A stretch of 64,000 nt of DNA from positions 2,027 through 66,026 of the forward strand of contig JAGVEL010000017.1 of assembly GCA_020058285.1 (NCBI GenBank), read 5' to 3'. Origin of the DNA: Candidatus Omnitrophota bacterium. GTDB lineage: Bacteria; Omnitrophota; Gorgyraeia; JAHJTE01. This document shows, piece by piece, positions 10,686 through 33,776 of the stretch (position 1 is the stretch's first letter; the number at the start of each line of letters is the position of its first letter). A program made the translations under genes and the position numbers. The notes under the pieces were generated by a model that was not told where the DNA came from, made no database searches, and saw nothing but the letters and a program-made list of their open reading frames with translations.

Positions 10686-10688
10686 TAT

Positions 10689-15359: not shown

Positions 15360-15492
15360 CTTGCACAATTCGCACCCGCAAAGCGGGCAAGAATTGTTCA
15401 AGATTAGTCCTAATACAATCTTGGCTGTGCCAAGATTGTGTAGGAGATTAATTCCGGCAGACAATTTATGTTCATTACATTCCATAAATTGT
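15360..15492 (-). repeat. Structured intergenic repeat element, copy 1 (three hairpins; shares the conserved loop TTCATTACATTC and a GAGATTAATTCC box with the copies at 22857 and 33621)
   Basis: Hairpins cttgcacaattc..gaattgttcaag, acaatcttgg..ccaagattgt, and acaatttatg-ttcattacattc-cataaattgt lie immediately 3' of the nrdJ stop. Confidence 0.6.
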
Positions 15493-15499
15493 GCCGTCA

Positions 15500-17779
15500 T
15501 TAACACTTCGAATATCCACAGGAATGGCACTTGACGCAGCCTTCTTCGTGGCGTAAAGCACCGCCGCAATCAGGACAAACTCCGACGATGTTAGCGCTGT
15601 GCAGGCTATTTTCCACAACACTTTCTGCTTGAGCTAAAGTAGCCTCTGCTCCTGCGTTTTCCTCTATTGCATCCTTATCATTAACCAGGCGCTTCTCAAT
15701 AACCCGGGCAATAGCATCAGCACAAGAAAATATGCGCACACCCTTTTCCCAGGATGGCGACGGACATCTAATACCTCTTAATTGCTCAATGATTGATTTT
15801 AAGTCTAATTCAGAACGCAGAGACAAGGATACCAGGCGGCCAATTGCTTCAAGCTGGCTTGCTGCACACCCTCCGGCTTTGCCCATTTGAGTAAAAACTT
15901 CAAACGGCCTGCCTTGTTCATCGCAGTTTATCGTGACATAAAGATTGCCGCAGCCTGTTGCAACCTTTGTCGTCGTGCCGCATACAACCTCTGGCCTGGG
16001 CCGAGGCGTAATCTTTCCTTTTGGTATTGATATTTCCTTATCTTTTTCTGTTGATTTGCCTACATTTAAAACCTGTTCTTCGCGGCTGCCATCACGATAA
16101 ATCGTAACGCCTTTACATCCTAATTTAAAAGCTGACAAGTAAACTTGCCGCACATCATTCTCTGTAGCTGCTTTAGAAAAATTCACTGTTTTAGACACTG
16201 CGTTATCCGTATATTTTTGGAATGCAGCCTGCATCCGCGCATGCCAAATAGGCGAGATATCATGGGCAGTGACAAAAACCCTGCGCACATCCTCGGGGAT
16301 TTCTTTAATCTGGGCTAGCGAGTTCGTCTCAGCAACAGCCTCCATAAGTTTACGTGAATAAAAATTTCTTTCTTTAGCCACTTGTTCAAATATCGGATCA
16401 ACCTCAACCAGTTTATCATTATCCATAACGTTGCGATAATAAGAAATCGCAAATAACGGCTCTATCCCTGAAGAACATGGCCCGGCAATAATGCTAATCG
16501 TTCCCGTCGGAGCAATTGTAGTCAATGTCGCATTTCTCAAAGCTAAAGGAGGATTTAATTTAGCATATCTACTTTTATTAAACGCCGGAAAAGGCCCGCG
16601 TTTTTTGGCAATCTTCACAGAAGCCTTTTGCGATTCTTTTAAAATAAACGACATCAATTTTTCAGCTAAAATAAGCGCCTCTTCGCTATCATAAGGGATA
16701 TTTAATAAAAGAAGCAAGCTAGCCCAGCCCATTACTCCCAGGCCGATTTTCCTATTTCTCCGGGTATTTTCCTCAATCTGTTTAAGCGGGAATTTATTGA
16801 CATCAATTAGATTATCCAGGAAGTGTACGGCAAGATAAACTATCCTTTGTAACTTATCCCAATCTATCTCATATTTTAAATCCTGTTTCTTAACCATCTT
16901 ACAAAGATTAATTGAACCCAGGCAACAGCTTTCAAAAGGTAAAAGCGGCTGCTCACCGCAAGGGTTAGTGCTTTCAATCTCGCCCAGCTCCGGAGTAGGA
17001 TTATCTTTATTAACTCGGTCAATGAAGATAATTCCCGGCTCGCCGTTGTTATGAGCCATCTTCACAATCAAATCAAAGACCTCTTTTGTATTTAGTTCTC
17101 TGACTTTATTTTTTGTATGCGGGTCAATTAAATCGTAATTCTCGTTTTTTTCCAACCTTTTCATGAAATCATCAGTAACTGCTACGGAAATATTAAAATT
17201 GGATATTTGTTTGTCTTTGGCCTTACAGGTAATAAACTCCATTATATCCGGATGATCTACGCGTAATATCCCCATATTTGCCCCGCGCCGAGTACCGCCT
17301 TGTTTAACTGCCTCAGTTGCCGCGTCAAAAACCTTCATAAATGAAACCGGGCCTGAAGCTATGCCACCCGTAGAGCAAACCTGGCTATTTTTGGCTCGCA
17401 GCCGGGAAAAAGAAAAACCTGTACCTCCGCCGGTTTTATGAATGAGCGCTGTGGATTTTATCGCATCAAAAATACTCTCCATCGAATCATCAATCGGCAA
17501 AGTAAAACAAGCTGAGAGCTGGCCACCGGGTTTTCCTGCATTCATAAGACACGGGCTGTTGGGCATAAACTCTAGCTCAATCATCGCCTTATAAAAGCTC
17601 TCTGAAATTTGCTCAACTTCAAGATGGGTTGCTTTATAGAGTTTATCTGCGCTGGCTATCGCGCTGGCCACGCGCCTAAATAGCTGTTCCGGAGTCTCGA
17701 CAACCTTTCCTTCTGCATCTTTTTTAAGATAGCGCCTTTCCAAAACTTTTAAGGCATTTTCAGATAACTTAACGCTCAT
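15500..17779 (-). CDS. nrdJ: Class II (adenosylcobalamin-dependent) ribonucleotide reductase
   Basis: 759 aa. The N-terminus MSVKLSENALKVLERRYLKKD, the active-site region, and the C-terminal Cys cluster CPDCGGALRHEEGCVKCHSCGYSKC all fit NrdJ. Confidence 0.9.
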   Translation of the reverse strand: MSVKLSENALKVLERRYLKKDAEGKVVETPEQLFRRVASAIASADKLYKATHLEVEQISESFYKAMIELEFMPNSPCLMNAGKPGGQLSACFTLPIDDSMESIFDAIKSTALIHKTGGGTGFSFSRLRAKNSQVCSTGGIASGPVSFMKVFDAATEAVKQGGTRRGANMGILRVDHPDIMEFITCKAKDKQISNFNISVAVTDDFMKRLEKNENYDLIDPHTKNKVRELNTKEVFDLIVKMAHNNGEPGIIFIDRVNKDNPTPELGEIESTNPCGEQPLLPFESCCLGSINLCKMVKKQDLKYEIDWDKLQRIVYLAVHFLDNLIDVNKFPLKQIEENTRRNRKIGLGVMGWASLLLLLNIPYDSEEALILAEKLMSFILKESQKASVKIAKKRGPFPAFNKSRYAKLNPPLALRNATLTTIAPTGTISIIAGPCSSGIEPLFAISYYRNVMDNDKLVEVDPIFEQVAKERNFYSRKLMEAVAETNSLAQIKEIPEDVRRVFVTAHDISPIWHARMQAAFQKYTDNAVSKTVNFSKAATENDVRQVYLSAFKLGCKGVTIYRDGSREEQVLNVGKSTEKDKEISIPKGKITPRPRPEVVCGTTTKVATGCGNLYVTINCDEQGRPFEVFTQMGKAGGCAASQLEAIGRLVSLSLRSELDLKSIIEQLRGIRCPSPSWEKGVRIFSCADAIARVIEKRLVNDKDAIEENAGAEATLAQAESVVENSLHSANIVGVCPDCGGALRHEEGCVKCHSCGYSKC

Positions 17780-18015
17780 TTTACCACCCTTTTTTTAACG
17801 CTAAAACGCGAAAATTGGTTATTAAAATATTTATATCGCTAAACCACAAAGATTTTTTTGCGGCCTTAAGCGGTGTAATCTGTATTTTTTATTTGTATTT
17901 TTTGCGATTTTGCGGTGTAAAGAGTATAACTCTGATTTTTATGCCTGTCAAGGTAAAAATACTACATATAGTATGTGCTTAAAATTTAAACACAATAAGT
18001 GGTATTTACCCCGAC

Positions 18016-19020
18016 TTAACTTTTAGGCCTAAATGCAGTTACTGAATCGCGTATAACCAGTTGCGGTTTTAATGCTGCATTTTTCAAACTTACTGGTTTT
18101 CCGGCAATAAGGTAGAGGAGTGTTTCTAAGGCCTTTTCGCACATCTCATTTAAAGGCTGATGAACTGTAGTCAAGCGAATCTGGCCAAAAAGCCCTATTG
18201 GATCATCATCAAAACCGATTACAGAGATATCCTGGGGGACATTTATTCTTTTTTCAGCCAACGCTGAAATAGCCTCCATTGCCATATCATCGCTGGCCAC
18301 AAATATGGCTGTTGGCCTTTTGTCCGTCTTGATAATTGCCTCCACTGCCTTGCGGCTGGAATTACGTGAATAATCTGCCTTGAATATATATTTATCGCTT
18401 GCCAAAATTCCTTTATCAACAAGCGCCTTTTTATATCCGGCGAGCCGCTCGCTTGCAGCCTGGGTATTCAAGTCTCCGGAGATATGAGCGATAATCTTAT
18501 GGTTTAAACCAATCAGATAATTCACCGCCTCATATGCGCCGGCTTTGTTATCAATATAAACGCAGTTTACCTGGGATTGTTCAAAATTTCTATTTATGAC
18601 TACGCTGGGTATGCCTTGTTTTATTGCTTCGTCAACCTGGGCAACATTATCAATTATATCCGCAAACACAATACCATCAACCGCATTAAAATTAAGCACA
18701 GCGTTTCTGGTGCTTAAGTGTAAAAGTAAATCCATGCGCATCCGCTCACAAACAGCGCCAATAGCGCGGATAATCTCAATGGCATAAAATGAATGGAATA
18801 AGCCCGGATAAAAAGGTATAACCAGGCCGATAGTGTTGGTTTTTCCGCCGGCAAGGCGTTGTGCGCTTATATTTGGCTTAAACTTCAACTTGCGGATTGC
18901 TTCTTCGACCCGGAGGCGGTTTTTTGCAGTTACGGAAGGAGTTTTATTTATTACGCGCGAAACTGTAGTAATAGATACATTAGCTACTTTAGCTACATCT
19001 TGAATAGTAACTTTATTCAC
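18016..19020 (-). CDS. LacI/GalR-family transcriptional regulator
   Basis: 334 aa. The N-terminal HTH is VTIQDVAKVANVSITTVSRVIN, followed by a periplasmic-binding-protein-like sugar-binding domain. Confidence 0.9.
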   Translation of the reverse strand: MNKVTIQDVAKVANVSITTVSRVINKTPSVTAKNRLRVEEAIRKLKFKPNISAQRLAGGKTNTIGLVIPFYPGLFHSFYAIEIIRAIGAVCERMRMDLLLHLSTRNAVLNFNAVDGIVFADIIDNVAQVDEAIKQGIPSVVINRNFEQSQVNCVYIDNKAGAYEAVNYLIGLNHKIIAHISGDLNTQAASERLAGYKKALVDKGILASDKYIFKADYSRNSSRKAVEAIIKTDKRPTAIFVASDDMAMEAISALAEKRINVPQDISVIGFDDDPIGLFGQIRLTTVHQPLNEMCEKALETLLYLIAGKPVSLKNAALKPQLVIRDSVTAFRPKS

Positions 19021-19055
19021 TGTAATTTTAAAAAAAAGAAATATCTATTAATGAC

Positions 19056-19074
19056 AAGCTTTTTAAAAAAGCTT
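19056..19074. promoter_or_regulatory. Perfect 19-bp palindrome AAGCTTTTTAAAAAAGCTT in the LacI-gene 5' region (candidate autoregulatory operator, or an AT-rich terminator for the upstream gene)
   Basis: Seen directly in the 80-bp gap between the coiled-coil gene stop (19101) and the LacI gene start (19020). Confidence 0.4.
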
Positions 19075-19100
19075 AAAGGAAAGCTTCTTATTTTTTATTC

Positions 19101-20288
19101 TTAGCGTACTATATCGCCGATCTTCATTCTATGTTTAGCGTCAAAGCGAATTATGTCTGCTGCGCTTATATTTTTCCTGGCCTGAATTACTTCAACGCGG
19201 CCGATGGAAACATTATTGCGATAGATGTCAAATTTTCTTCCGAGCGTAACTGCGTGATTTTCTCCTAAATTTATTACCACAAAATTATTAGCCTCATTTA
19301 TCGCAATTATTTTACCAGAGATAATCTTTAAATCGTTAACCGGCTCGTTGTTTTGCCCCTTAACCACAATTGGCGGCAACTCAACTTCCTTGGCTTCTTT
19401 TTCGCTTTCTGTAGACGCCTTTACGCTTTCCCCGGAAGGTAGTGCCCTTATCTCCCTTGAAACCTTAGCCACCTCGTTAATTTTCTCATCAAGGCTGGCA
19501 TTAATCTGCTCAACCTTTTGATCTAATATCTGTCTCTCTGATTCAATTGACTGCATTTTAGTCTTTAGGGAAAGGTTTGTCCTATCTAGATCTTTTACCT
19601 TTGAGCGTAACGACAAATTCTCTTGTTTTATAAATGTAATCTGGTCTAATATTTCTTTTTTATCCTTCTGCTCACGCATTAAATCTGTAGATAGATTAGA
19701 TGCCAGCCTCTCGTTATAATCTGCACGCCGGCTTAGCTCTTTATTGTCCTGCTCAAATTTGGAAAGCTGTAAGGACAAATCACTTTTATCCTTACTCACC
19801 GTATCTAATCTTATCTGCAGGTCACCTACCACATCTTTTAAATCGGATAATTTTAATTCCAGATCAGCCTTATCTTTTAAAAGTTGCGCCCAATATTCGT
19901 CTGAGGCGCCGGTCGGTTGCTGCGGCTTTTCACTAACCTGCTGTGGCTCCTCTTTCTTTGTCGCGGCTAAACTTTTCAACCTTTCGACAAGTTCATCTTT
20001 TTCTTTTACTAACGTCTCGTATTTTGCCTGAACATTCTCCCGTTCCGCTTTTAAAGAATTTAAGTCTTTTTCGAGTTGGGGAATTTTGCTTTGCAGTTTT
20101 TCTTTTTCGTCTTTAAGGCTGGCTAATTGACTGGACCAGGTAGTGGTCTGAGTGTTTAGTTTATCTTTAATCTCATTGTAATTTTGCTGCAGTGATTGTC
20201 TTTCCTGGAATAGCTGCAATAAGAAGAAAACGCTTACTGATAACAAAATTAATAAGCCAATTATAATAAATTTTGAGCCTTTTCCCAT
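19101..20288 (-). CDS. Membrane-anchored coiled-coil protein with a conserved C-terminal approximately 90-aa globular domain
   Basis: 395 aa. An N-terminal TM helix (FIIIGLLILLSVSVFFLLQLF) is followed by a long heptad-rich Q/E/K/L region. The C-terminus reads GKIIAINEANNFVVINLG...IGDIVR. Confidence 0.7.
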   Translation of the reverse strand: MGKGSKFIIIGLLILLSVSVFFLLQLFQERQSLQQNYNEIKDKLNTQTTTWSSQLASLKDEKEKLQSKIPQLEKDLNSLKAERENVQAKYETLVKEKDELVERLKSLAATKKEEPQQVSEKPQQPTGASDEYWAQLLKDKADLELKLSDLKDVVGDLQIRLDTVSKDKSDLSLQLSKFEQDNKELSRRADYNERLASNLSTDLMREQKDKKEILDQITFIKQENLSLRSKVKDLDRTNLSLKTKMQSIESERQILDQKVEQINASLDEKINEVAKVSREIRALPSGESVKASTESEKEAKEVELPPIVVKGQNNEPVNDLKIISGKIIAINEANNFVVINLGENHAVTLGRKFDIYRNNVSIGRVEVIQARKNISAADIIRFDAKHRMKIGDIVR

Positions 20289-20302
20289 TTACCCCCCTTG
20301 TC

Positions 20303-21544
20303 TTACGCTTTAATGAACATATTGCGCACTACTAAACTTGCTGCACCTAAGGCTACTGCATTTTCTCCGAGTCGCGACGGCATTATTTTTACTGCCTGGG
20401 CCATTTCCTTGAAACACCAATCATTAACTGATTGACGTACAATATCAAGCAGAACATTACCCGCTTCCTCTAATCCGCCGCCGATTATTACTAATTGCGG
20501 ATTAAATACATTGACCAGGAATGCAATCTTTAAAGCCAACCTCCTTGAGACAGCGGCGATTAATTCTAGAGCTAATGAATCACGCTGTTTAGCAGCGTTA
20601 AAGATTATGTTTAAATTAATTTTTGATATATCCGCCGAGGCTAATTTAAAAATGAGCGAAGAATCTTTTAGCTCCGGAGAGTTTAAGAATCTATTTCTCG
20701 CTGCCTCCCGCAAACCTAAATCGGCTTCTATCCGTTTCAATAAACAAGGAGCGCCAAATTCACAATTAAAAAGCTCTTCATCTTTGGGACTTGATATTGA
20801 TAACTCTCCGGCTGCGCCGCTTGCGCCGCGATAGATTTGGCCATCAATCATTATCCCACAGCCAACACCGGAAAAAAAATAAAGTAAATGCTTTATTTCC
20901 GGATTTAGCGTCAACCACTGCTCGCCAAAACAGGCCAACGTGGCATCGTTATCAATAAACGCATTTAAACCAAATTCGCGTTCAATAATGTCTTTTAGCG
21001 GTAAATATACACTGGCGTAGTCAGTCTTATTCTCTGAAATTTTTTGCGGCCACAAAACTGTTTCGCCAAGTTTATCTACAATGCCAGCAATGCCTACGCC
21101 TACACCTTCAATATTTCTATTTTGTTTTTTTGCCTCAGTTACTAACCGAGTAGTAATTTTAACTATTGCCTGGACAATATCTTTTATATTTAATTCCGGC
21201 TTATCTTCCTTGACGCAATATAAAAGTTTTCCATTTAAATCCGTCATCACTCCTACCATATTCAGGAGATTGATGCCCACGCCAAGCGCCACACCTCTAG
21301 TTGAGTTTAAATCCAATAATAACGGCCTGCGGCCGCCGCCCGATACATCCAGGGCTTTTTCCATAACTATACTTTTTTCTAAGAATTCCTCAATATAATT
21401 AGAAACTGTGGCTACATTAAGACCGACAATTTTAGATATGTCGGTTTTGCTTATCGGGCCGCTACGCCTAATAGCTTCAAGTATAGCTAAGTTCCTTCGC
21501 GACCTCTCTGTTAAAATTTCATCTTCAAAAACTTCCGTTCTCAC
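20303..21544 (-). CDS. ROK-family transcriptional repressor (NagC/XylR-like)
   Basis: 413 aa. The N-terminal winged HTH (ILEAIRRSGPISKTDISKIVGLNVATVSNYIEEF) is followed by a ROK sugar-kinase-like domain with glycine-rich motifs. Confidence 0.85.
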   Translation of the reverse strand: MRTEVFEDEILTERSRRNLAILEAIRRSGPISKTDISKIVGLNVATVSNYIEEFLEKSIVMEKALDVSGGGRRPLLLDLNSTRGVALGVGINLLNMVGVMTDLNGKLLYCVKEDKPELNIKDIVQAIVKITTRLVTEAKKQNRNIEGVGVGIAGIVDKLGETVLWPQKISENKTDYASVYLPLKDIIEREFGLNAFIDNDATLACFGEQWLTLNPEIKHLLYFFSGVGCGIMIDGQIYRGASGAAGELSISSPKDEELFNCEFGAPCLLKRIEADLGLREAARNRFLNSPELKDSSLIFKLASADISKINLNIIFNAAKQRDSLALELIAAVSRRLALKIAFLVNVFNPQLVIIGGGLEEAGNVLLDIVRQSVNDWCFKEMAQAVKIMPSRLGENAVALGAASLVVRNMFIKA

Positions 21545-21630
21545 GGTTCACATCTCTTTTTTCTCCGTGGCTTTTTAATTAAATTAATCTTACTACATAA
21601 CTTAAATTAAGTCAATAGGTTATCAATAAA

Positions 21631-21669
21631 AATTTACCCCGTTAGTATTTTCTAACGGGGTAAATTTTT
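21631..21669 (-). terminator. Rho-independent terminator (bidirectional-looking) after the tandem-domain protein gene
   Basis: A 10-bp perfect stem accccgttag/ctaacggggt with a 7-nt loop is flanked by A/T runs. Confidence 0.6.
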
Positions 21670-21690
21670 GAACGTAATCCTTAAAAAGAA

Positions 21691-22839: not shown

Positions 22840-22856
22840 TCTGCCTCCTTAATGAG

Positions 22857-23012
22857 CGCATAACTTACGGAGCAGGAACTACGACGTAAGTTATTTGCGC
22901 GAATTAATCCCTCACCTTTTATCTATTCAAGTATTTAGGTATTTTTTGAATACCTAAAAAGGTGAGGGATAAGTTCAGCCAATAAAGTTATGTTCATTAC
23001 ATTCCATAACTT
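22857..23012 (-). repeat. Structured intergenic repeat element, copy 2 (hairpin A cataacttacg..cgtaagttat, box GCGAATTAATCC, hairpin B, hairpin C with loop TTCATTACATTC)
   Basis: Seen directly. It lies 3' of the glycoside hydrolase gene. Confidence 0.6.
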
Positions 23013-23168
23013 TAGGCTTCACTTAACTTCTTTTAATCTTTTTAAATCTATCTAGTTAACTTTTAAAGTATAATCTACGCGTATCTAAAAGTCAAGCGAA
23101 ATTTGGCCAGCTGGCGATTCAAATTTCACTTGTGCCGCAAAGGCTTTTGCGGCCAAGCAAGCAGAACC

Positions 23169-25481: not shown

Positions 25482-25507
25482 CCGACCAGCGCTCCCGCGG
25501 TAATACC

Positions 25508-27034: not shown

Positions 27035-27057
27035 TAATTGACCTCCGTTCTTTTTTC

Positions 27058-27897
27058 TTATTGAAATATCGCCTGAGAAATTACTCCCTTGACAATATAC
27101 TTCTGCATCAACAGGTATAAGATGATTATAGGTAGGGCCGCTATAGTAAGTCCTGCCATCAAAAGTGGGTAATTAGTCAGGAACTCTCCCCGGAACATCA
27201 TCACCCCCCGTTGAAGAGGCATCAGGTTTTTACTGTTAAATATTATCAAAGCCAGTACATATTCGTTCCAGACATTCAGGGCGTTAAAAATCACCACCAC
27301 CGCAAGCGCCGGCTTGACAAAGGGCAGAGCCACATGTCTATAAATCCCCAACCTGTTGCAGCCGTCTATCCTAGCGGCATCCTCTAACTCTTTAGGCATC
27401 TTATCGAAAAACGTCTTAAGTAAAAATATGCTAAAAGACAGCCCCACGTTAATAAGGCATAAAACATACCCCAGCCGCGTATTGACCAAATGAAGTTTCA
27501 CCATAAGCACATATAAAGGAACGAAACTACCCGGCAGCGGTATCATCATCGCGGCAAGAAGCATGATAAAGAATGCCTTTCTACCGGGAAATTCCAATCG
27601 CGAAAACGCAAATGCTGCCAGCGATGATACTAAAACTATGCCGAATACTACAGTAAAGGTATATATTAAGCTATTCAAGAAATACCTACCGAAACCCCCG
27701 TCTATCCAGGCCGTGACATAATTCTCGAAATGCGGCTGTTGAGGAATTATGCTCATGTCAGAAAAAACAGTTGCCTGCGTCTTTAAGGAAGAACCAAACA
27801 TCCATAATAGAGGGAAAAGACAGGCAATCGACACCGAAATCAATAAAAGATGGACTAGGATGTTTGTGAAGGTTTTCTTTACCCTATATATCTGCAT
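27058..27897 (-). CDS. ABC sugar transporter permease (CUT1 family, MalG-like)
   Basis: The EAA loop is DAARIDGCNRLGIYRHVALPFVKPAL. The start is assigned to the internal ATG that overlaps the upstream permease stop (ATGA). The ORF-track start at 27984 would overlap the upstream gene by 88 nt. Confidence 0.75.
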   Translation of the reverse strand: MQIYRVKKTFTNILVHLLLISVSIACLFPLLWMFGSSLKTQATVFSDMSIIPQQPHFENYVTAWIDGGFGRYFLNSLIYTFTVVFGIVLVSSLAAFAFSRLEFPGRKAFFIMLLAAMMIPLPGSFVPLYVLMVKLHLVNTRLGYVLCLINVGLSFSIFLLKTFFDKMPKELEDAARIDGCNRLGIYRHVALPFVKPALAVVVIFNALNVWNEYVLALIIFNSKNLMPLQRGVMMFRGEFLTNYPLLMAGLTIAALPIIILYLLMQKYIVKGVISQAIFQ

Positions 27898-28928
27898 TAT
27901 GCCTGCCTCATATTTTGCGAGATCCTCTTCTGTACAAAGGAAATTGCCAGGAGGATTGCGCCGAATATTATACTCTGTGCACAAGCATACCCAAATCTAG
28001 AAGAGCCTATCATAGAACTTAGTATTCTGGTCACCGGCACCTCGGTATGGAATCCCGGCCCACCGTCGGTCATAGTAAGTATCAAAATAAACGACTGCAT
28101 AGAGCCTAAAACCGTCAGTATCGCCACCAGCACGAATACTGGGATCATCAAAGGCGCGGTAATATTCTTAAATACCTGCCAACTAGTCGCTCCCTCAACA
28201 CGTGCAGCTTCATAAAGCTGTTTTGGTATAGTCTGTAATCCAGCAAGTAGAATAACAAATCCCCAGCCAAAACCTTTCCAGGAATGTACTATCGCCACAC
28301 AGGTTAATGCTGTATGAGGATCAGACAACCAGGCCTTAGTTAAATTATTAAAACCCAACGCAACCAGCCAATGATTCAATAGTCCGTAATTGCCATCATA
28401 TATCCACTGCCAAACCAAACCTACTACAACCTCGGATAATACCGGAGGTATAAAAAATATCATCCTGTAGAAATTCCCCGCCTTCATTTGTCTATCGCAG
28501 GCTAATGCCAGAATCAAAGCCAGGGCATTCTGGAAAGTTAATGCGATTAAAGTAATATAACCGGCATTAAACATCGACTGCCACCAGACTTTATCTTTTA
28601 TGACCTCTATAAAATTATATAAACCTACGAATTTCATTGTTGGCAGGATACCATCCCAACTGTAATGACCCAGTTGTAAAACTTTTATAAAAGGATAAAT
28701 ATAAAATATCGAAAAAATTGCTAAGGCAGGAACTATAAAAAGAAAACTTTTGAATTGCTTTGCTAAAATAATTTTAGTAACGAGGATAATAAGAAGTGCG
28801 ACTGCCAATAATATTATGATCGGAGATATGAATCTAAGGTTGTGGGATTTTTGATAAATTAATTCTGCTAAAATGAAACACAATATTACTATGATTGATT
28901 TTACATAGATATTTTTAAATATCCTCAT
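27897..28928 (-). CDS. ABC sugar transporter permease (CUT1 family, MalF-like)
   Basis: 343 aa with 6 TM helices and the EAA motif EAARVEGATSWQVFKNITAPLM. Confidence 0.85.
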   Translation of the reverse strand: MRIFKNIYVKSIIVILCFILAELIYQKSHNLRFISPIIILLAVALLIILVTKIILAKQFKSFLFIVPALAIFSIFYIYPFIKVLQLGHYSWDGILPTMKFVGLYNFIEVIKDKVWWQSMFNAGYITLIALTFQNALALILALACDRQMKAGNFYRMIFFIPPVLSEVVVGLVWQWIYDGNYGLLNHWLVALGFNNLTKAWLSDPHTALTCVAIVHSWKGFGWGFVILLAGLQTIPKQLYEAARVEGATSWQVFKNITAPLMIPVFVLVAILTVLGSMQSFILILTMTDGGPGFHTEVPVTRILSSMIGSSRFGYACAQSIIFGAILLAISFVQKRISQNMRQA

Positions 28929-28931
28929 CGT

Positions 28932-30263
28932 TTAATTAGAAACTATCCTGGATGACTCTTTCTCTTTTATAGCCTGCAATTCTTGCGCTAACTGCTCAGG
29001 AGTCTTTTCTTTAATCAATATTAACTGAATGCCTTTCCCCAGTGCCTCAATGACACCTGGGAACTCATTCACTGGCCAAATGCTGGGATGAGTAGCGCTA
29101 TCCATACCATCTGCAAACTGAGCCAAAATCTTGGGGATTTCTGCAAGCGCAAATTTGTTGGAAGGCAAGTTTTTAGTCTGACTCGATAAATATGCCTGTT
29201 GGTCTTTATCTGTTAACCACTTTAAAAACTTTATTGCCTCTAGTTTCTTACTAGATCTATCATTTACAAGAAATGAGAATGAAGAGCCTCCGCCCCAAAT
29301 ATACATAGGATTTTTTCTATTTACTTTTGGTGGCAAGAATACCCCATACTCTAAATGGGGATTCATGCCATCATAAACATTAATACACCATGAACCATTA
29401 AATGCAAATGCCGCTCTTTCATTAGCAAATGTCTGCTCAGCGACTTTATTTTTCATTATGACAACGCCGGATACTAAGGCATGTTTATCTACCAGTTCTT
29501 TAAATAATGAAAAGACTTTAATCCAATCAGGATCAGTATAAGGTACATCTCCTTTTAAAGTAGCGATAACCTTATCTTCTCCCATAATATTAAATGCATA
29601 ATTGGACGCAAAACAATCAATCATCCAAATCTCTCCCCACCCCGAGACCAAACCTGGCACACCCACTTTTTTTAATTTATTGATATTGTCAATAAATTCC
29701 TCCCAGTTTGAGGGTGGTCTCTCTGGATCAAGTCCTGCCTTCTTAAATAATTTTTTATTGTAAAGCATCTGGATATTCATTATATCAATAGGAGCACCAT
29801 AGATGCCTGGCAATATGGCATAGGTATTATTCTCCTTGAATTCCACCACCTCTAGAGCTTTAGAAAAGAAACATTCTTTCCAAACGCCATTTTCCTCATT
29901 CATAACCTCGCTTAAATCTGCTACATGGCCACTTTTTATAAATGCTGCAAAATCTCTCTTTTCACCCAGAAGTCCGTATATATCTGGTAAGGTTCTTCCT
30001 TGGGCAGCAGCGCGGACTTTTTGGGCATAGATATCAGAAGGGGCATAGAGTTCAAAATTAACTTTTATGCCGGTTTTGTCCTCGTAGCGTTTGGCCAATT
30101 CTTGAAAGGCTGCCTCGCGGTCAGTCATCCAGTGCCAGACATTAATTGTCGGCTTGGAAGAAAGTTTCTTAGACGAACAACCTGTTAAAGAAAATCCAAA
30201 TGCCAAAGCACAAATGACAAGATAATAACAAAATTTAAATTTCAAATGAAAAAATTTTGACAA
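28932..30263 (-). CDS. ABC transporter extracellular solute-binding lipoprotein (family 1, sugar)
   Basis: 443 aa. The lipobox is LTGCSS. It has a family-1 solute-binding fold and sits upstream of two permeases. No ATPase gene lies in the locus, as is typical for CUT1 systems. Confidence 0.85.
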   Translation of the reverse strand: MSKFFHLKFKFCYYLVICALAFGFSLTGCSSKKLSSKPTINVWHWMTDREAAFQELAKRYEDKTGIKVNFELYAPSDIYAQKVRAAAQGRTLPDIYGLLGEKRDFAAFIKSGHVADLSEVMNEENGVWKECFFSKALEVVEFKENNTYAILPGIYGAPIDIMNIQMLYNKKLFKKAGLDPERPPSNWEEFIDNINKLKKVGVPGLVSGWGEIWMIDCFASNYAFNIMGEDKVIATLKGDVPYTDPDWIKVFSLFKELVDKHALVSGVVIMKNKVAEQTFANERAAFAFNGSWCINVYDGMNPHLEYGVFLPPKVNRKNPMYIWGGGSSFSFLVNDRSSKKLEAIKFLKWLTDKDQQAYLSSQTKNLPSNKFALAEIPKILAQFADGMDSATHPSIWPVNEFPGVIEALGKGIQLILIKEKTPEQLAQELQAIKEKESSRIVSN

Positions 30264-30272
30264 CTTTTCTCC

Positions 30273-32693
30273 TTATCCTAAAACTACCCTTACTTTATAA
30301 GTTTTCCCGGGCTGCCTTGGCTTAATTACGTTGCCGTCTATAAGTTGATTATCCACAAAAACTGCCTTAACACCCTTGGATTTTCCTTTTGGGTTTTCAA
30401 TTTCTATCATATATATAGCGCCTCTAAACGGCCGGCGGATAGAGCATTTTTTCCAGTGACGAGGGATACACGGATCAACCCTCAGGCCTTCAAAATCTCG
30501 GCGCGCACCTAACAACCACTCTGTTGCAGCCATAAAAGTCCAACCAGCTGTTCCAGTAATCCAGGTAAATGCACCCTCACCATATAGGTAAGGATGCTGC
30601 GGCCCGACAAGATATTCTGACCAGGCATATGGCTCTGTTTTATATAATTCGTAATCCTTTTGAAGATTAGGCATAATCTTACGCATTGCCTCATAAGCAA
30701 AATCTCCGTAACCTTTAGATAACAAAGCCACAATCATGAATGTTGCAGCATGGCAAAAAACAGCTGCGTTTTCTTTTGTGCCTTGCGAGAACATGCTTAT
30801 TCTGCCTAATTTCGGATTAAATTCACTATAAGCCGGAGCAAATAATGCTAGCCCATGGTCACCGTCTAAATATTTTCTTGCCGAATCAACGATTTTTTCA
30901 GTCCGGCCCGCATCATCAGAAATGCCGGATAGGATTGCCCAAGACTGAGCATTGAGATGAATTTTGCCTTCCTTATTTACCTTGCTGCCGTAAACTGTGC
31001 CGTCATCAGTAAATCCGCGCTGATACCAGGCTCCATCCCAGCAAACTTCATTAACCCGCTCGCTCATTGTCTTTGCTTTATTTAAAAACTCTTCTTTCTT
31101 GGCTTTATCGCCTACAAGCGCACAAAGTTCGGCAAATAATTTTAAACTGCGCACTAATGCCTGGGCAAGCCAGACACTTTCGCCTTTGTGCTTAATGCCT
31201 GCGGCATCAATAGCATCATTCCAATCAGCATGGCCGATGTGCGGTAAGCCCCGCTCTCCAACGTCATTAAAACAGAAATTAAGGTTTCTCTCTAGATGCT
31301 CAAACAATGTTCCTTCTCCATCTGTCGTTGCCCCGCCGGAGAAATTCACATCAATATTCCAGCCTTTGAGCCACTTATCCTTTAGGTAACTTATATACTC
31401 AGACAAAATAGCCTTGTCCCCGGTTTCCCGGATATAAGCATGCACAGTTGCAGTAAGCCAGATTTGATGGTCTTTGTTCGGACGATGCCCAGCTGGACCG
31501 GTTGTATCGCCCCAACCCGAAGCACTGGTGCCGTCTTTTCTGATGAGTGAGGCAATGTGCATTATGCGCTTACGGGTAAATTCAGGATTTATCGAAACTA
31601 AACTTTCCGAATCTTGGCAGGAATCGCGGTAACCTCTACCACCTGAGCCTTCATGATAATAACTAGGAGAACGGCTCCAGAGATTACAGATATACAACTG
31701 GTATTTTACCCAGATATTCATCATAAAATCAAAATCCTTATCCGGGGTATTAACCCAGATATTATCCAATATTTTTTTCTGCCAAAAACCCTTAACATTA
31801 TCTAATTCTTTTTTGGTATTATTTAAATTGCGGTATTTAGTAAGTAAGTGGCTGATATTCGGCAGGCCTTGTGTCTGGCCGAGGATTATTACAAATTCTT
31901 TATTTTTCCCCGCAGCTAAATTTAATTTATGCTTAAAGCAGGCAATCGCGTCTTCGCCGGAACAAAAATCAATATTCTTGAACTTATCATCAAAAATCAT
32001 TTCCGGATGCTGGTCAGTGTTATACCTGCCTAAGAAAGGATATTTTCTTGTAACATATCCATCGGCTTTTAAGGAAGAGGCAAAAAATGCCTGATAGGAA
32101 AAATGTTGGATATTGAAATCGCCCCAGGCTGCGGTTTTTTTAGCAAAAATCGCTTCGTGCTGCTTATCGAACCAGACGCGGTTATATAAATTCATAATAT
32201 TGCGATAGCGCAATTCCAAATGATAATCACCAAGCAGCCATTCGCAGTAAGGAAATAACTCTAATTGTTTTGATTTTTTTGTTTCATTTTTAATAGAAAC
32301 CAGCCAGATTTCGCAATGATCATTAGTCGGAACAAAATAGGTAATTTCAGAAGATACACCATTGTATTTTGTTTTAATCTTGGTGTAACCCAAGCCGTGC
32401 CGGCATTCGTAAAAATCAGGCTTTTCTTTAACCGGCTGATAAGTAAGGGACCAAATTTTGGATTTTTCCTTTACGTAGATATATCTACCTGGCCGGTCGT
32501 CTTGCCAGCTTGAAGGAAGCCAGCGCAATATCCGGTCAGAGCGGCAATCCTTTAAGAAACTATAACCGCTGGCACAATGCGAGATAACTGCGCAATATTC
32601 TTCATTAGTTAAATAATTAATCCAGGGGCGGGGTGTGAGGGGGTCGGTTACAACAAATTCTAATCCGTCGTTAGTAAAATGGCCGTACTTCAT
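30273..32693 (-). CDS. GH94 glycoside phosphorylase (cellobiose / cellodextrin / chitobiose phosphorylase family)
   Basis: 806 aa. The N-terminus MKYGHFTNDGLEFVVTDPLTPRPWINYLTNEEY matches the conserved GH94 start (MKFGxFDDxxREYVITxPxTPxPWINYL). The length is typical. Confidence 0.8.
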   Translation of the reverse strand: MKYGHFTNDGLEFVVTDPLTPRPWINYLTNEEYCAVISHCASGYSFLKDCRSDRILRWLPSSWQDDRPGRYIYVKEKSKIWSLTYQPVKEKPDFYECRHGLGYTKIKTKYNGVSSEITYFVPTNDHCEIWLVSIKNETKKSKQLELFPYCEWLLGDYHLELRYRNIMNLYNRVWFDKQHEAIFAKKTAAWGDFNIQHFSYQAFFASSLKADGYVTRKYPFLGRYNTDQHPEMIFDDKFKNIDFCSGEDAIACFKHKLNLAAGKNKEFVIILGQTQGLPNISHLLTKYRNLNNTKKELDNVKGFWQKKILDNIWVNTPDKDFDFMMNIWVKYQLYICNLWSRSPSYYHEGSGGRGYRDSCQDSESLVSINPEFTRKRIMHIASLIRKDGTSASGWGDTTGPAGHRPNKDHQIWLTATVHAYIRETGDKAILSEYISYLKDKWLKGWNIDVNFSGGATTDGEGTLFEHLERNLNFCFNDVGERGLPHIGHADWNDAIDAAGIKHKGESVWLAQALVRSLKLFAELCALVGDKAKKEEFLNKAKTMSERVNEVCWDGAWYQRGFTDDGTVYGSKVNKEGKIHLNAQSWAILSGISDDAGRTEKIVDSARKYLDGDHGLALFAPAYSEFNPKLGRISMFSQGTKENAAVFCHAATFMIVALLSKGYGDFAYEAMRKIMPNLQKDYELYKTEPYAWSEYLVGPQHPYLYGEGAFTWITGTAGWTFMAATEWLLGARRDFEGLRVDPCIPRHWKKCSIRRPFRGAIYMIEIENPKGKSKGVKAVFVDNQLIDGNVIKPRQPGKTYKVRVVLG

Positions 32694-32739
32694 GCTTAAT
32701 TTCTCCTCTCCTTTTATATGATATTAAGCTGCTTACACA

Positions 32740-32774
32740 CCTGCCTGCCGGCAGGCAGGGATTTTTTAAAAAAG
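32740..32774 (+). terminator. GC-rich perfect palindrome cctgcctgcc/ggcaggcagg followed by GATTTTTT (hairpin/terminator-like; orientation ambiguous)
   Basis: Seen directly in the GH94 operon leader region. On the plus strand it looks like an intrinsic terminator. It could instead be an operator or leader structure. Confidence 0.35.
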
Positions 32775-32852
32775 ATTACACCGATTAAAGCATAAATCGA
32801 TAAAGCAAAACTTTACCACAAATCAATATGCGGGTCAAGAAATTTCGTTTGC

Positions 32853-33203
32853 CTAAACCCCAACAGTTTCATTGCTTCGTAAACACTTCTCCAAAAGCAC
32901 AGCAAAAGTCACCAGATTAACCGACTGTTCTCTTAAAACCACTCCCGCCCGCCAGCCATCGGGAAAATATTCCCTGGACCAGGCGATTTGGCCGGTTAAA
33001 TCAATCAACGGAAGCTCGCCGGGAATTTTAATCTGAATCTTAATCGGGCCTTGTTGAGGAATTTTGTTTTTAGAAAACAACCCTATCCCTTTTGCTGCCA
33101 AATCCCTACTTTCCGCGGATAACTCTAAATCCGGAGAATCTGTTTTAATACGCAATGGCAAGTTCAGTAATATTCTATCAAAATATCGGCGTTCATTTTC
33201 CAT
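32853..33203 (-). CDS. PilZ-domain protein (degenerate second motif)
   Basis: 116 aa. The RxxxR motif is RRYFDR. The beta-barrel PilZ-like fold is inferred. The D/NxSxGG motif is degenerate. Confidence 0.55.
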   Translation of the reverse strand: MENERRYFDRILLNLPLRIKTDSPDLELSAESRDLAAKGIGLFSKNKIPQQGPIKIQIKIPGELPLIDLTGQIAWSREYFPDGWRAGVVLREQSVNLVTFAVLLEKCLRSNETVGV

Positions 33204-33600
33204 CTTCCTTCACCTCCGTGGGTCGAAGGCCGGCCCACCATTTTTTATTCAATTCTTGGTTACAGAACTTAAATGCATAATGAAATATTCTTTCCTTGTC
33301 CCGGTCAACAAGATTGCTAAAACTTACACCCGTAGCAAGGGTTTGCCCCTCACGAACAATCGGTAAATCTTGCTGCCAGGCAACTCTGCCTTCGGTGAAT
33401 ACAAAACGCTGCTCGTCGGGCAATTCAATAATTACTTCTAAATCTGTCTGAGGAAGGTATTTCACGCGAGATTGAAACCTTATGCCGCCGCAACTGATAT
33501 CGCCTGCCTGAGTGTAAATTTCCGGTTCTTCATAATCTACTCTCTTGACGCTAACTGCGCCGTCAAAATTCCAGCGAATCGCTTTTCTTCTTTCTTCCAT
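33193..33600 (-). CDS. PilZ-domain c-di-GMP-binding protein
   Basis: 135 aa with RxxxR (RRKAIR) and DxSxGG (GDISCGGIRF) motifs. Confidence 0.7.
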   Translation of the reverse strand: MEERRKAIRWNFDGAVSVKRVDYEEPEIYTQAGDISCGGIRFQSRVKYLPQTDLEVIIELPDEQRFVFTEGRVAWQQDLPIVREGQTLATGVSFSNLVDRDKERIFHYAFKFCNQELNKKWWAGLRPTEVKEDGK

Positions 33601-33620
33601 ATCCGCCCTCCTTTAATAAG

Positions 33621-33776
33621 CACATAACTTACGGAGCAATTGATTATCTTTGGCGACGTAAGTTATAAGTGCGAATTAAATCCAGCACTTATTTTACTGC
33701 AAGGCTTATAATTAAAATAAGTGCTGGGTCAAATTCAGACATACAACTTATGTCGTTGAAAACTCCATAAGTTGTG
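33621..33776 (-). repeat. Structured intergenic repeat element, copy 3 (hairpin A cacataacttacg..cgtaagttat, box GCGAATTAAATCC, hairpin B ccagcacttatttt..aaaataagtgctgg, hairpin C acaacttatg..cataagttgt)
   Basis: Seen directly. It lies 3' of the PilZ-ROK gene stop. Confidence 0.6.

What the first reader, a model, noticed from the sequence alone, without database searches (positions are those of the whole stretch)
15360..33776. Family of structured intergenic repeats (three copies) placed 3' of minus-strand genes, with a conserved loop and covarying stems
The copies are at 15360-15492 after nrdJ, 22857-23012 after the GH gene, and 33621-33776 after the PilZ-ROK gene. All three share the same architecture: hairpin A, hairpin B, a GMGAATTAAWTCC box, and hairpin C. 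The hairpin-C loop TTCATTACATTC is identical in copies 1 and 2 while their stems differ in a compensatory way (acaatttatg/cataaattgt versus aagttatg/cataactt). Hairpin A (cataacttacg..cgtaagttat) is near-identical in copies 2 and 3. Covariation argues for a functional RNA structure. It could be a complex terminator or 3'UTR element, a REP/MITE-like element, or a protein-binding RNA, rather than random palindromes.
Basis: seen in the sequence. Interest (0 to 1): 0.6.

Follow-up and report, generated by a model that had tools for sequence, protein, structure and literature searches.

The report
Gene-less copies of a nuclease-carrying palindromic repeat
The three structured intergenic repeats are gene-less copies of a palindromic, apparently mobile DNA element of Omnitrophota bacteria; full-length copies carry a tiny GIY-YIG nuclease gene related to the recently described Ssn single-strand DNA nucleases, so the paired stems most likely reflect DNA hairpins, not a regulatory RNA.

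Summary
The repeats are real. A covariance model of the ~60-nt hairpin unit ("U") finds exactly five units in the window (E 1e-13 to 1e-16): two inverted units around a central hairpin B in copies 2 and 3, and one in copy 1.

Each runs from the upstream gene's stop codon, or from a promoter, to 6-9 nt before the next gene's ATG. None is a terminator.

The same U(inverted)-B-U architecture occurs in many Omnitrophota contigs. In seven independent loci the B loop holds a 76-79 aa GIY-YIG gene, with its start and stop codons inside the B arms. Copy 3 has those same B arms around a 16-nt loop, so it is an ORF-less derivative.

Three results point to DNA-level palindromes:
- Stems covary through Watson-Crick changes only: 777 Watson-Crick, 6 G.T and 24 other mismatches.
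- Loop motifs follow the unit's orientation, not the direction of transcription.
- A syntenic relative has a 25-nt nrdJ-apgM spacer with no element.

The nuclease is homologous to SRM-flanked Ssn-type nucleases (hhalign 96.9%). The hairpins do not match the published SRM motif.

Verdict: a new variant of the Ssn/hairpin-repeat kind, resembling MITE and REP elements. How it moves is inferred, not shown.

The parts
15447..15506 (+). Copy 1: hairpin unit U, given in its own orientation. It corresponds to 'hairpin C', loop TTCATTACATTC. Its outer end TCATTAA overlaps the nrdJ stop codon (15500-15502, minus strand).
   Evidence: cmsearch 74.4 bits, E 1.1e-16. ssDNA fold -11.9 kcal/mol, z -5.8. Sequence.
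15408..15445 (-). Copy 1: central hairpin in the B position (CCTACACAATCTTGGC..GCCAAGATTGTATTAGG). Its sequence is unrelated to the B arms of copies 2 and 3.
   Evidence: RNA fold. No relatives found in any locus.
15359..15403 (-). Copy 1: third hairpin, GC-rich core GCCCGC/GCGGGT. It is not a U unit, so copy 1 is a partial or chimeric element.
   Evidence: RNA fold. Not detected by the U model. No relatives.
22969..23028 (+). Copy 2: distal U unit ('hairpin C'). It lies inverted relative to the mRNA. Loop TTCATTACATTC.
   Evidence: cmsearch 73.2 bits, E 2.4e-16. ssDNA fold z -6.2.
22909..22968 (.). Copy 2: central hairpin B, arms CCCTCACCTTTT (22909-22920) and AAAAGGTGAGGG (22957-22968), with no ORF in the loop. 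The same arm type occurs in L026 at about 7417-7492.
   Evidence: Sequence. Fold. blastn match to L026.
22846..22908 (-). Copy 2: proximal U unit ('hairpin A') ending in TCATTAAGGAGG. The Shine-Dalgarno sequence (SD) follows, and the ATG of the 382-aa gene is at 22839.
   Evidence: cmsearch 65.4 bits, E 3.2e-14. Sequence.
23067..23095 (-). Sigma70-like promoter TTGACT-17-TATACT upstream of copy 2. It is conserved in the syntenic relative L021/L022, so copy 2 lies in a 5' UTR.
   Evidence: Promoter scan, 10 of 12 positions. Conservation in L021.
33729..33789 (+). Copy 3: distal U unit ('hairpin C'), loop TCGTTGAAAACTC.
   Evidence: cmsearch 65.7 bits, E 2.7e-14. ssDNA fold z -5.6.
33682..33728 (.). 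Copy 3: central hairpin B, with a 16-nt loop. On the + strand the arms read CCAGCACTTATTTTA (33682-33696) and TAAAATAAGTGCTGGG (33713-33728). In mRNA sense they read CCCAGCACTTATTTTA / TAAAATAAGTGCTGG. This is the same arm family that brackets the GIY-YIG ORF in L012, L016, L017, L018 and L026, with one compensatory change. Copy 3 is therefore the ORF-less form.
   Evidence: Sequence. Comparison with ORF-bearing loci.
33610..33680 (-). Copy 3: proximal U unit ('hairpin A') ending in TTATTAAAGGAGG. The ATG of the 135-aa PilZ gene is at 33600.
   Evidence: cmsearch 62.1 bits, E 2.6e-13. Sequence. Pfam PilZ.
33800..33828 (-). Sigma70-like promoter GAGACA-17-TATAAT between the upstream gene's terminator-like hairpin (33859-33840) and copy 3.
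   Evidence: Promoter and terminator scan.

Best explanation
The three elements are ORF-less (MITE-like) members of a family of nested palindromic DNA elements in Omnitrophota. A complete element reads as follows, in the sense of the host genes:

(T)AAATGA - U hairpin (inverted) - GAATTTGA - B arm - [76-79 aa GIY-YIG nuclease ORF, or just a short loop] - B arm - TTYAATTC - U hairpin - TCATTRAA - GGAGG (SD) - ATG of the next host gene.

Each U unit is about 60 nt. It has a 5-bp outer stem, a 2x2 internal loop, a 4-bp stem, a 2-nt bulge with a conserved A, a 10-bp stem (..ACTTAYG/CRTAAGT..) and a 12-23-nt loop of consensus TTCRYT..YTC.

Shown:
- the architecture and its recurrence;
- the nuclease gene sitting exactly inside hairpin B;
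- Watson-Crick-only covariation of the stems;
- absence of the element from the nrdJ-apgM spacer of a syntenic relative, and of any detectable U unit from that relative's 21 kb;
- homology of the nuclease to SRM-flanked Ssn-type GIY-YIG proteins.

Inferred:
- By analogy with SsnA, which binds a hairpin in single-stranded DNA and cuts next to it, the mini-nuclease recognises the U (and/or B) hairpins extruded in single-stranded DNA. It would nick at the element ends and so drive copying or transposition. ORF-less copies such as those in this window would be mobilised in trans.
- The element sits in operon spacers and 5' UTRs in the same direction as the host genes and relies on read-through transcription.
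- It is tolerated because its ends supply stop codons (TAA/TGA within TAAATGA) and abut a strong SD for the downstream gene.
- Any RNA-level effect of the hairpins, such as mRNA processing or stability, would be a by-product.
For: - Five U units in the window at E 1e-13 to 1e-16, and none elsewhere in the 64 kb.
- The same architecture in Omnitrophota MAGs and metagenome contigs.
- A GIY-YIG ORF (Pfam PF01541, E 9.7e-11) inside hairpin B in seven independent loci: L012, L016, L017, L018, L023 (between rpsD and rpoA), L026 and L031. The A of its ATG and its TAA lie within the 16-bp B arms.
- In all seven loci the ORF points the same way as the host genes.
- Copy 3 and L026:3678-3837 carry the same B arms around a short loop. 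L001:4631-4878 appears by eye to hold a decayed ORF remnant.
- B-arm type tracks the protein clade. CCCCACACCCAG arms were predicted for P0104 from its clade-mate P0094 and were then found.
- Covariation on 14 seed units: 97.7% of cells paired, 12 of 19 pairs changed on both sides, 0 of 500 shuffles as high, and 27-44% paired when the partner is slid.
- On 43 distinct units: 777 Watson-Crick, 6 G.T and 24 other mismatches.
- Loops and bulge are conserved in the unit's own orientation on either strand.
- The nrdJ-apgM spacer is 209 nt with copy 1 in the window. It is 25 nt in syntenic L021/L022 and holds unrelated sequence in L019 and L020. L021/L022 have no detectable U unit in 21 kb of synteny. 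L019 has a U unit before lacI where the window has none.
- L026 has 8 elements in 12 kb. In nearly every case the upstream stop codon lies in the first 5-18 nt of the element and the next ATG lies 0-13 nt after it.
- Catalytic-type residues are invariant in 28 homologues (Y5, Y16, Y17, R25, E43, R54, E55).
- hhalign against a Rhizobium GIY-YIG protein flanked by canonical SRM hairpins: probability 96.9%, E 2e-10.
- Ssn biochemistry and the 'NTS-ssnA-NTS, IS-like' idea come from PMC11893778.
Against: - No consistent target-site duplication and no clean empty-versus-filled pair with defined junctions were found. Movement is therefore inferred from distribution only.
- No GIY-YIG gene lies in the 64-kb window, so a trans-acting source in this genome is unverified.
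- Several B-arm families (CCCTTGACA, and the CCCTCACC arms of copy 2) were seen only without an ORF.
- The hairpins do not match the published SRM consensus.
- The protein is 15-20 aa shorter than characterised Ssn proteins, so the biochemical analogy may not transfer.
- The invariable placement next to an SD, and the ORF pointing the same way as host genes, would also fit an RNA-level role.
- ORF-bearing loci were retrieved through the ORF itself, so the ratio of ORF-bearing to ORF-less copies is not sampled fairly.
Confidence: 0.68

Rival explanations
1. The GIY-YIG gene is a secondary invader. It would be a minimal homing-endonuclease gene that homes into the loop of hairpin B of a pre-existing REP/BIME-like repeat family, and that family would be spread or maintained by something else. 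The window copies would then be never-invaded 'empty' targets rather than deletion derivatives.
For: - B-arm families CCCTTGACA and CCCTCACC were seen only without an ORF.
- The ORF sits precisely in a hairpin loop, as homing-endonuclease genes do in intron loops.
- A multi-copy repeat is an ideal homing target.
- Weak similarity to the group-I-intron endonuclease model TIGR01453 (E 1e-4, below its cut-off).
Against: - No other transposase (Y1 or DDE) appears in the window. Among the fetched Omnitrophota loci none appears near the elements.
- The protein has no DNA-binding domain for recognising a duplex target.
- Its closest characterised relatives, the Ssn proteins, act on the very hairpins that flank them (PMC11893778).
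- ORF-less B loops share no conserved sequence that could serve as a homing site.
Confidence: 0.17
2. This is a host-domesticated hairpin-plus-nuclease system rather than a selfish element. As proposed for NTS/SsnA in Neisseria, the repeats would mark genes and the nuclease would cut them in single-stranded DNA to modulate recombination, transformation or replication-associated processes.
For: - Homology to Ssn-type proteins.
- The NTS/SsnA precedent.
- Strong purifying selection on the small protein.
- Dense decoration of a particular gene cluster in L026.
Against: - The nuclease gene lies at a different locus in every genome examined: rpsD-rpoA, kamA-ald, nadE-pqqD and others. A domesticated single-copy gene would not.
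- Decayed or degenerate ORFs occur: the L001 remnant, and P0099, which has substitutions at conserved residues.
- Occupancy differs between close relatives.
Confidence: 0.1
3. This is a cis-acting RNA element. The three hairpins in the 5' UTR or intercistronic RNA would control translation, processing or stability of the neighbouring genes, or would terminate the upstream gene.
For: - Very stable predicted RNA folds, z about -7.6.
- Always transcribed with host genes and always ending next to an SD.
- Stem covariation.
Against: - Units occur in both orientations relative to the transcript, with loop and bulge conserved in DNA orientation.
- No G.U enrichment.
- No U-tract after any hairpin. 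Copies 2 and 3 lie downstream of promoters, and the upstream gene of copy 3 has its own terminator-like hairpin.
- The flanking genes are functionally unrelated: apgM, a 382-aa secreted protein, PilZ, rpoA, sufC-like contexts and others.
- A syntenic relative has the nrdJ-apgM and GH2 - 382-aa junctions without the full element and with an SD still in place.
- No Rfam match.
Confidence: 0.05

Closest known systems
Ssn nucleases with NTS/SRM hairpin repeats (Chenal et al. 2025, Nat Commun, PMC11893778)
   Same: - A single-domain GIY-YIG protein under 100 aa.
- The gene is bracketed on both sides by inverted hairpin-forming repeats.
- The same hairpins are scattered in many extragenic copies without the gene.
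- The overall layout is IS-like.
- A bona fide SRM-flanked member in Azospirillum also sits inside an operon, between sufB and sufC, pointing the same way as those genes.
- Protein homology: hhalign 96.9%, E 2e-10.
- Both proteins have the same nearest solved structures, the UPF0213 proteins 1zg2 and 1ywl.
   Different: - The protein is 76-79 aa, against about 94 aa. It lacks the ~10-aa segment after the RRxxEH motif and the C-terminal tail.
- The published SRM consensus gives 0 hits in these elements but 4-5 hits around each control gene.
- The repeat unit is a 60-nt, AT-rich, three-segment hairpin with a conserved 12-nt loop, not a 20-30-nt GC-rich hairpin preceded by CGTCAT.
- An extra palindrome (B) brackets the ORF exactly from start codon to stop codon.
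- Elements run from the upstream stop codon to the downstream SD.
- The phylum is Omnitrophota.
REP/BIME and REPIN elements with their RAYT transposases
   Same: - Extragenic palindromic units in inverted pairs separated by short conserved linkers.
- Dense in operon spacers and co-transcribed with the host genes.
- An associated small nuclease gene flanked by the repeats.
- Hairpins thought to be recognised as single-stranded DNA.
   Different: - The associated enzyme is GIY-YIG, not a Y1 (HUH) transposase.
- There is no conserved GTAG or CGTC tag.
- The units are twice as long and AT-rich, with sequence-conserved loops.
Bacterial MITEs that fold into long hairpins in mRNA (Correia/NEMIS, ERIC, BOX, RUP)
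   Same: - ORF-less, 150-180 bp, with long terminal inverted repeats.
- They insert between genes and are co-transcribed.
- Their structure is modular, as in boxA-boxB-boxC.
- Occupancy differs between related strains.
   Different: - The gene-bearing relative is not a DDE insertion sequence.
- No target-site duplication was detected.
- Each inverted-repeat arm is itself a hairpin.
IS200/IS605-family elements
   Same: - Very small.
- Ends defined by subterminal imperfect hairpins, not by simple inverted repeats.
- No target-site duplication.
- A single-strand DNA mechanism.
   Different: - A different catalytic fold.
- The two ends here are inverted copies of each other.
- The complete element is only about 390-450 bp.

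Membership tests
Ssn / SRM system (PMC11893778) | Single-domain GIY-YIG protein under 150 aa | tested here: met
   The ORFs in hairpin B are 76-79 aa. Pfam PF01541 gives E 9.7e-11 and 42.3 bits against a cut-off of 22.6. 399 homologues of about 77 aa were found. Y5, Y16, Y17, R25, E43, R54 and E55 are invariant. This applies to full-length relatives; the window itself holds no such gene.
Ssn / SRM system (PMC11893778) | Protein belongs to the cd10448 clade (blastp E<1e-10 and at least 75% coverage against N. meningitidis SsnA, CAX49033.1) | tested here: inconclusive
   Neither CDD nor the SsnA sequence was available. As a proxy, the best plasmid tblastn hits (E 1e-5, 40% identity, 75% coverage) are Rhizobium and Azospirillum GIY-YIG genes flanked by canonical SRMs. 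hhalign of the family profile against the Rhizobium protein gives probability 96.9% and E 2e-10 over 60 columns.
Ssn / SRM system (PMC11893778) | Gene flanked 5' and 3' by hairpin-forming repeats | tested here: met
   All seven independent ORF-bearing loci have an inverted U unit on each side.
Ssn / SRM system (PMC11893778) | Flanking repeats match the SRM consensus HGTCWYN(0-2)YYVSBRHN(0-5)WNVSBRGN(0-2)RNCYNB | tested here: not met
   The regex gives one unrelated hit in 343 kb of window plus loci, and none in any element. As positive controls it gives 5 hits around the Rhizobium gene and 4 around the Azospirillum gene.
Ssn / SRM system (PMC11893778) | Site-specific cleavage of single-stranded DNA only, next to the hairpin | not testable with these tools
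   This needs purified protein and oligonucleotide assays.
REP/BIME with RAYT | Associated Y1 (HUH) transposase gene flanked by the repeats | tested here: not met
   No PF01797 or other transposase appears among the window proteins. None appears near the elements in the gene tables of the fetched Omnitrophota loci. The gene found between the repeats is GIY-YIG.
REP/BIME with RAYT | Short (20-40 bp) GC-rich palindromes with a GTAG or CGTC tag | tested here: not met
   The units are about 60 nt with GC 0.22-0.49. The aligned units show no conserved GTAG or CGTC tag.
Classical MITE (deletion derivative of a DDE insertion sequence) | Terminal inverted repeats plus a target-site duplication | tested here: inconclusive
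   Long inverted-repeat arms are present (repeat finder I2 and I4). No consistent direct repeat flanks 16 complete elements. The terminal TYAA..TTRA motifs are inverted repeats and covary with the internal linkers.
Classical MITE (deletion derivative of a DDE insertion sequence) | Parent element encodes a DDE transposase | tested here: not met
   The gene-bearing relatives encode only the 76-79 aa GIY-YIG protein.
Intrinsic terminator | GC-rich hairpin followed by a U-tract at the 3' end of a gene | tested here: not met
   None of the 19 terminator-like sites in 15000-34500 lies inside an element. Copies 2 and 3 lie downstream of promoters. The hairpins are followed by TCATTAAGGAGG.
Curated RNA families (Rfam 15) | Match at or near a family's gathering score | tested here: not met
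   The window at gathering threshold gives only one tRNA. Permissive scans of copy 2 and of a full-length element give only generic long-hairpin miRNA-type matches far below threshold.
GIY-YIG homing endonucleases (I-TevI type) | Catalytic domain joined to a DNA-binding domain; member of the group I intron endonuclease family | tested here: not met
   The whole protein is one 76-79 aa catalytic domain. TIGR01453 scores 22 bits against a cut-off of 56.

The most novel reading that the evidence does not exclude
The full-length element (about 390-450 bp: two ~85-bp hairpin-bearing arms plus a 76-79 aa GIY-YIG gene) would be a self-sufficient mobile element that uses a single-strand-DNA hairpin nuclease as its only enzyme. 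It would then be among the smallest autonomous elements in bacteria. It would also be adapted to live inside operons: its ends would provide the upstream gene's stop codon and the downstream gene's ribosome-binding context, which would explain how it can sit even between rpsD and rpoA without harm. The window copies would be its miniature passengers.
Probability: 0.3. Interest if true: 0.8.

Novelty: new variant of a known kind. Interest (0 to 1): 0.6.

Why it matters
- It turns an apparent 'structured RNA with covariation' into a DNA-level story. This is a useful caution: Watson-Crick-only covariation, with orientation-independent conservation, points to DNA palindromes.
- It extends the Ssn nuclease / hairpin-repeat pairing, described in 2025, to Omnitrophota. 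Here the nuclease is smaller, the hairpin is different and much larger, and the nested architecture places the gene exactly inside a palindrome.
- It adds comparative evidence for turnover (occupancy differences between relatives, different host loci, decayed ORFs). This bears on the open question of whether Ssn-hairpin units are mobile elements.
- The stop-codon-to-SD placement suggests how such elements persist inside essential operons.
- Each nuclease-hairpin pair is also a candidate new specificity for single-stranded-DNA tools.

Tried and rejected
- Rfam at gathering and permissive thresholds gave nothing relevant.
- Exact-protein look-ups of the window's 382-aa protein and of apgM (P0121) found no record, so the source assembly could not be named.
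- The hairpin-loop 20-mer scans also returned hits without the hairpin context: L003 (Lachnospiraceae) and L014, both treated as chance, and L013, where only the loop core matches weakly (E 0.0012).
- Target-site duplication: W3 is flanked by AAAGGAGG on both sides, and TTAA flanks several copies. This does not generalise; the terminal motifs are inverted repeats.
- The SRM regex from the Ssn paper does not match the elements.
- A search for relatives of copy 1's two non-U hairpins found none.
- An integron attC reading was considered. It was dropped because the flanking genes are housekeeping genes in conserved synteny, and no integrase appears in the window or among the fetched Omnitrophota loci.
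- A group I intron or ribozyme reading was considered because the ORF sits in a hairpin loop. It was dropped because the non-ORF part is a pure two-fold palindrome of about 150 nt with no Rfam match.
- The Ssn paper's supplements, and a 2026 preprint that mentions SsnA, could not be read.

Full report
**1. What is in the window**

All annotated genes around the finding lie on the minus strand. Read in mRNA sense, the three elements are not simply 3' of genes.

- Copy 2 (22846-23028) lies downstream of a sigma70-like promoter, TTGACT-17-TATACT, at 23095-23067. It ends in GCGCTCATTAAGGAGGcagaATG, 6 nt before the start of the 382-aa gene at 22839.
- Copy 3 (33610-33789) lies downstream of the upstream gene's terminator-like hairpin (33859-33840) and of a promoter (33828-33800). 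It ends in GTGCTTATTAAAGGAGGgcggatATG, before a PilZ gene.
- Copy 1 begins on the nrdJ stop codon (TAA within GTGTTAATGACGG) and lies in the 209-nt nrdJ-apgM spacer.

Each element folds into three strong hairpins, with RNA z-scores of -7.5 to -7.8. The 22-mer around the hairpin-C loop is identical in copies 1 and 2 and was never matched in 100 shuffles. Only a tRNA reaches an Rfam gathering score in the window. Permissive scans give only generic hairpin matches.

**2. Anatomy**

Copies 2 and 3 are large imperfect palindromes (repeat finder I2 and I4). Hairpin 'C' is an inverted copy of hairpin 'A', the two linkers are reverse complements of each other, and the outer flanks read AAATGA ... TCATT.

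I therefore defined a single unit U of about 60 nt. It consists of:
- a 5-bp outer stem formed by the linker TTNAA and the terminal TTNAA;
- a 2x2 internal loop (TC/TC);
- a 4-bp variable stem;
- a 2-nt bulge with a conserved A;
- a 10-bp stem with conserved ACTTAYG/CRTAAGT;
- a loop of consensus TTCRYT..YTC.

On 14 seed units, 97.7% of cells are paired and 12 of 19 pairs change on both sides. No shuffle out of 500 reaches the observed values, and only 27-44% of cells pair when the partner is slid.

A covariance model (R1) finds exactly five units in the window: 15447-15506 (+), 22969-23028 (+), 22846-22908 (-), 33729-33789 (+) and 33610-33680 (-). E-values are 1e-13 to 1e-16.

Copy 1 has only one U unit. 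Its other two hairpins have no relatives in any locus. All five units fold the same way with DNA parameters: -11 to -14 kcal/mol, z -4.3 to -6.2.

**3. Relatives elsewhere**

Scans with the loop 20-mer hit Candidatus Omnitrophota MAGs (L001, L002), a MAG labelled Planctomycetales (L004) and several metagenome contigs. Stems differ between hits while the loop stays the same. L003 and L014 lack the hairpin context and are taken as chance; in L013 only the loop core matches weakly.

The window's apgM has homologues named Omnitrophota/Omnitrophica at 70-83% identity. Together with the 9567-aa ORF, this places the window in that phylum.

In L012 and L005 the arms of hairpin B (CCCAGCACTAATTTTA / TAAAATTAGTGCTGGG) bracket a 78-aa ORF. 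Pfam assigns the ORF to GIY-YIG (E 9.7e-11).

A protein search found 399 homologues of about 77 aa; where a source names the organism, it is Omnitrophota or Omnitrophica. A profile search of 1.84 billion representative proteins gives 489 clusters at E<=1e-10.

Genomic contexts of six further homologues all show the same layout: host stop codon - AAATGA - U(inverted) - GAATTTGA - B arm - ATG..GIY-YIG..TAA - B arm - TTYAATTC - U - TCATTRAAGGAGG - host ATG. These are L016, L017, L018, L023 between rpsD and rpoA, L026 and L031. The ORF always points the same way as the host genes. Across seven independent loci, 7 of 7 would happen by chance with probability 0.008.

Window copy 3 has these B arms with one compensatory change and a 16-nt loop in place of the ORF. 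L026:3678-3837 has them around a 6-nt loop. L001:4631-4878 appears by eye to hold a decayed ORF remnant.

A second arm family (CCCCACACCCAG) goes with a second protein clade. I predicted these arms for P0104 from its clade-mate P0094 and then found them.

The arm type of copy 2 (CCCTCACC) recurs in L026. That type and CCCTTGACA were seen only without an ORF. The window itself has no GIY-YIG gene and no transposase.

**4. DNA or RNA?**

Three observations favour a constraint at the DNA level.

- The unit occurs on either strand relative to transcription, and its asymmetric features (loop sequence, side of the bulge) are conserved in the unit's own orientation. The same loop therefore reads GAAUGUAAUGAA in the mRNA at the window's C positions, and UUCAUUACAUUC next to the SD in L002 and L008.
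- Across 43 distinct units there are 777 Watson-Crick cells, 6 G.T and 24 other mismatches. Wobble pairs are not favoured among the exceptions, unlike in selected RNA helices.
- Occupancy differs between relatives. The syntenic contigs L021/L022 (apgM 78% identical; same order GH2 ... ROK - LacI - nrdJ - apgM - gidA) have a 25-nt nrdJ-apgM spacer without any element. L019 and L020 carry unrelated sequence there.

In addition, L021/L022 have no detectable U unit in 21 kb, against five in the window's syntenic stretch. At the GH2 - 382-aa junction the promoter is conserved, but L021 has what I read by eye as a degenerate solo hairpin where the window has the full C-B-A element. Conversely, L019 has a U unit before lacI where the window has none.

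**5. Placement**

In L026, eight elements fill nearly every intercistronic spacer of a 12-kb cluster. In nearly every case the upstream stop codon lies within the first 5-18 nt of the element (the TAA or TGA of TNAAATGA) and the next ATG lies 0-13 nt after its end.

The terminal TYAA/TTRA motifs covary with the internal linkers, so they belong to the element. No consistent target-site duplication was found.

**6. Closest known system**

A literature search led to Chenal et al. 2025 (PMC11893778). That paper describes Ssn, a family of single-domain GIY-YIG proteins (cd10448; the N. meningitidis SsnA is 94 aa) that cut only single-stranded DNA next to a specific hairpin repeat (NTS/SRM). The repeat flanks the ssn gene on both sides and is scattered in hundreds of extragenic copies. 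The authors note the IS-like NTS-ssnA-NTS layout and raise domestication of a mobile element as a hypothesis.

I tested membership as follows.

- The paper's SRM regular expression finds none of the Omnitrophota elements.
- It does find 4-5 sites around the Rhizobium and Azospirillum GIY-YIG genes that are the best plasmid matches of the Omnitrophota protein. The Azospirillum gene sits between sufB and sufC.
- hhalign of the Omnitrophota family profile against the SRM-flanked Rhizobium protein gives probability 96.9% and E 2e-10.
- Both have the UPF0213 structures 1zg2 and 1ywl as their nearest solved relatives, followed for the Omnitrophota profile by SLX1.

The protein is therefore a shortened relative of Ssn-type nucleases. 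The hairpin is of a different type, and the nested B palindrome and the stop-to-SD placement are new features. Direct assignment to cd10448 could not be tested.

**7. Conclusion**

The three window elements are ORF-less members of a palindromic element family whose full-length members carry a mini Ssn-like GIY-YIG nuclease. I am about 85% confident of that family relationship.

It is inferred by analogy, and untested, that the nuclease acts on the U/B hairpins in single-stranded DNA and thereby spreads the elements. I rate that mechanism at about 50% and the combined explanation at 0.68.

Three rivals remain: a homing endonuclease invading a pre-existing repeat family, a domesticated host system, and a primary RNA role. 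The last is the least likely.

Noticed in passing
window 35239-63942 (-): A single 9567-aa ORF, an Omnitrophota-type giant gene, fills almost half the window. Its domains were not examined.
   Followed up: no
window 25397-25440, 39853-39879, 55468-55501, 55805-55838, 57211-57244, 59332-59358, 62167-62210: Short tandem DNA motifs (TGGTCCATGG / TGGACTGTGGACT) recur in both orientations inside the giant ORF and once near the 5' end of the GH2 gene (repeat finder D4, D16, I1, I7, I10). This is a second repeat family, and it is unexplained.
   Followed up: no
window 3386-3730 (-) and 3851-3922 (-): A gene of the 23S rRNA-intervening-sequence protein family (PF05635, E 5.8e-31) lies next to a tRNA gene, between spoVG and an NTP-transferase gene.
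   Followed up: no
L019 1522-5109: The nrdJ of a close relative carries an intein with a LAGLIDADG endonuclease domain. The window's nrdJ (15500-17779) has none.
   Followed up: no
L002 754-1218 and 2478-2781: In an Omnitrophota MAG, the metK-ahcY spacer and the next spacer hold chains of a different long hairpin module (CCCAAAAGCAAAGCACTACGTAGATTTG-TTCC-AAATCTACGTGTAGCTTTCGGG). These alternate with U units, some with an extra small hairpin inserted in the bulge. This suggests a wider modular repertoire.
   Followed up: partly
L006 about 560-1100: A partial element (U plus B) abuts what looks like the 3' end of a tRNA gene and is bracketed by a 44-bp direct repeat that includes about 20 nt of that end. 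The tRNA reading comes from the sequence alone and was not checked with a tRNA finder. It could be a long target duplication or an assembly artefact.
   Followed up: no
L030 (Azospirillum lipoferum 4B plasmid AZO_p3) 1354-1972: A canonical Ssn-like GIY-YIG gene sits between sufB and sufC, pointing the same way, with a pair of inverted SRM hairpins on each side. Operon-internal residence is therefore not peculiar to Omnitrophota.
   Followed up: partly
L017 19262-19640: A second, longer (90-aa) GIY-YIG gene without U/B flanks is followed by a ~60-nt tandem repeat.
   Followed up: no
L011 4040-4230 compared with L012 2620-2950: At the same kamA-ald junction, one strain has the full element with the nuclease gene. 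Another keeps only the left U unit and the start of the B arm, followed by a different set of small GC-rich palindromes.
   Followed up: partly
window 9578-9691 / 10141-10254 and 10623-10686 / 11262-11325: Two pairs of 88-92% identical direct repeats lie in and around neighbouring plus- and minus-strand ORFs that have no Pfam match. They are probably recent paralogues.
   Followed up: no
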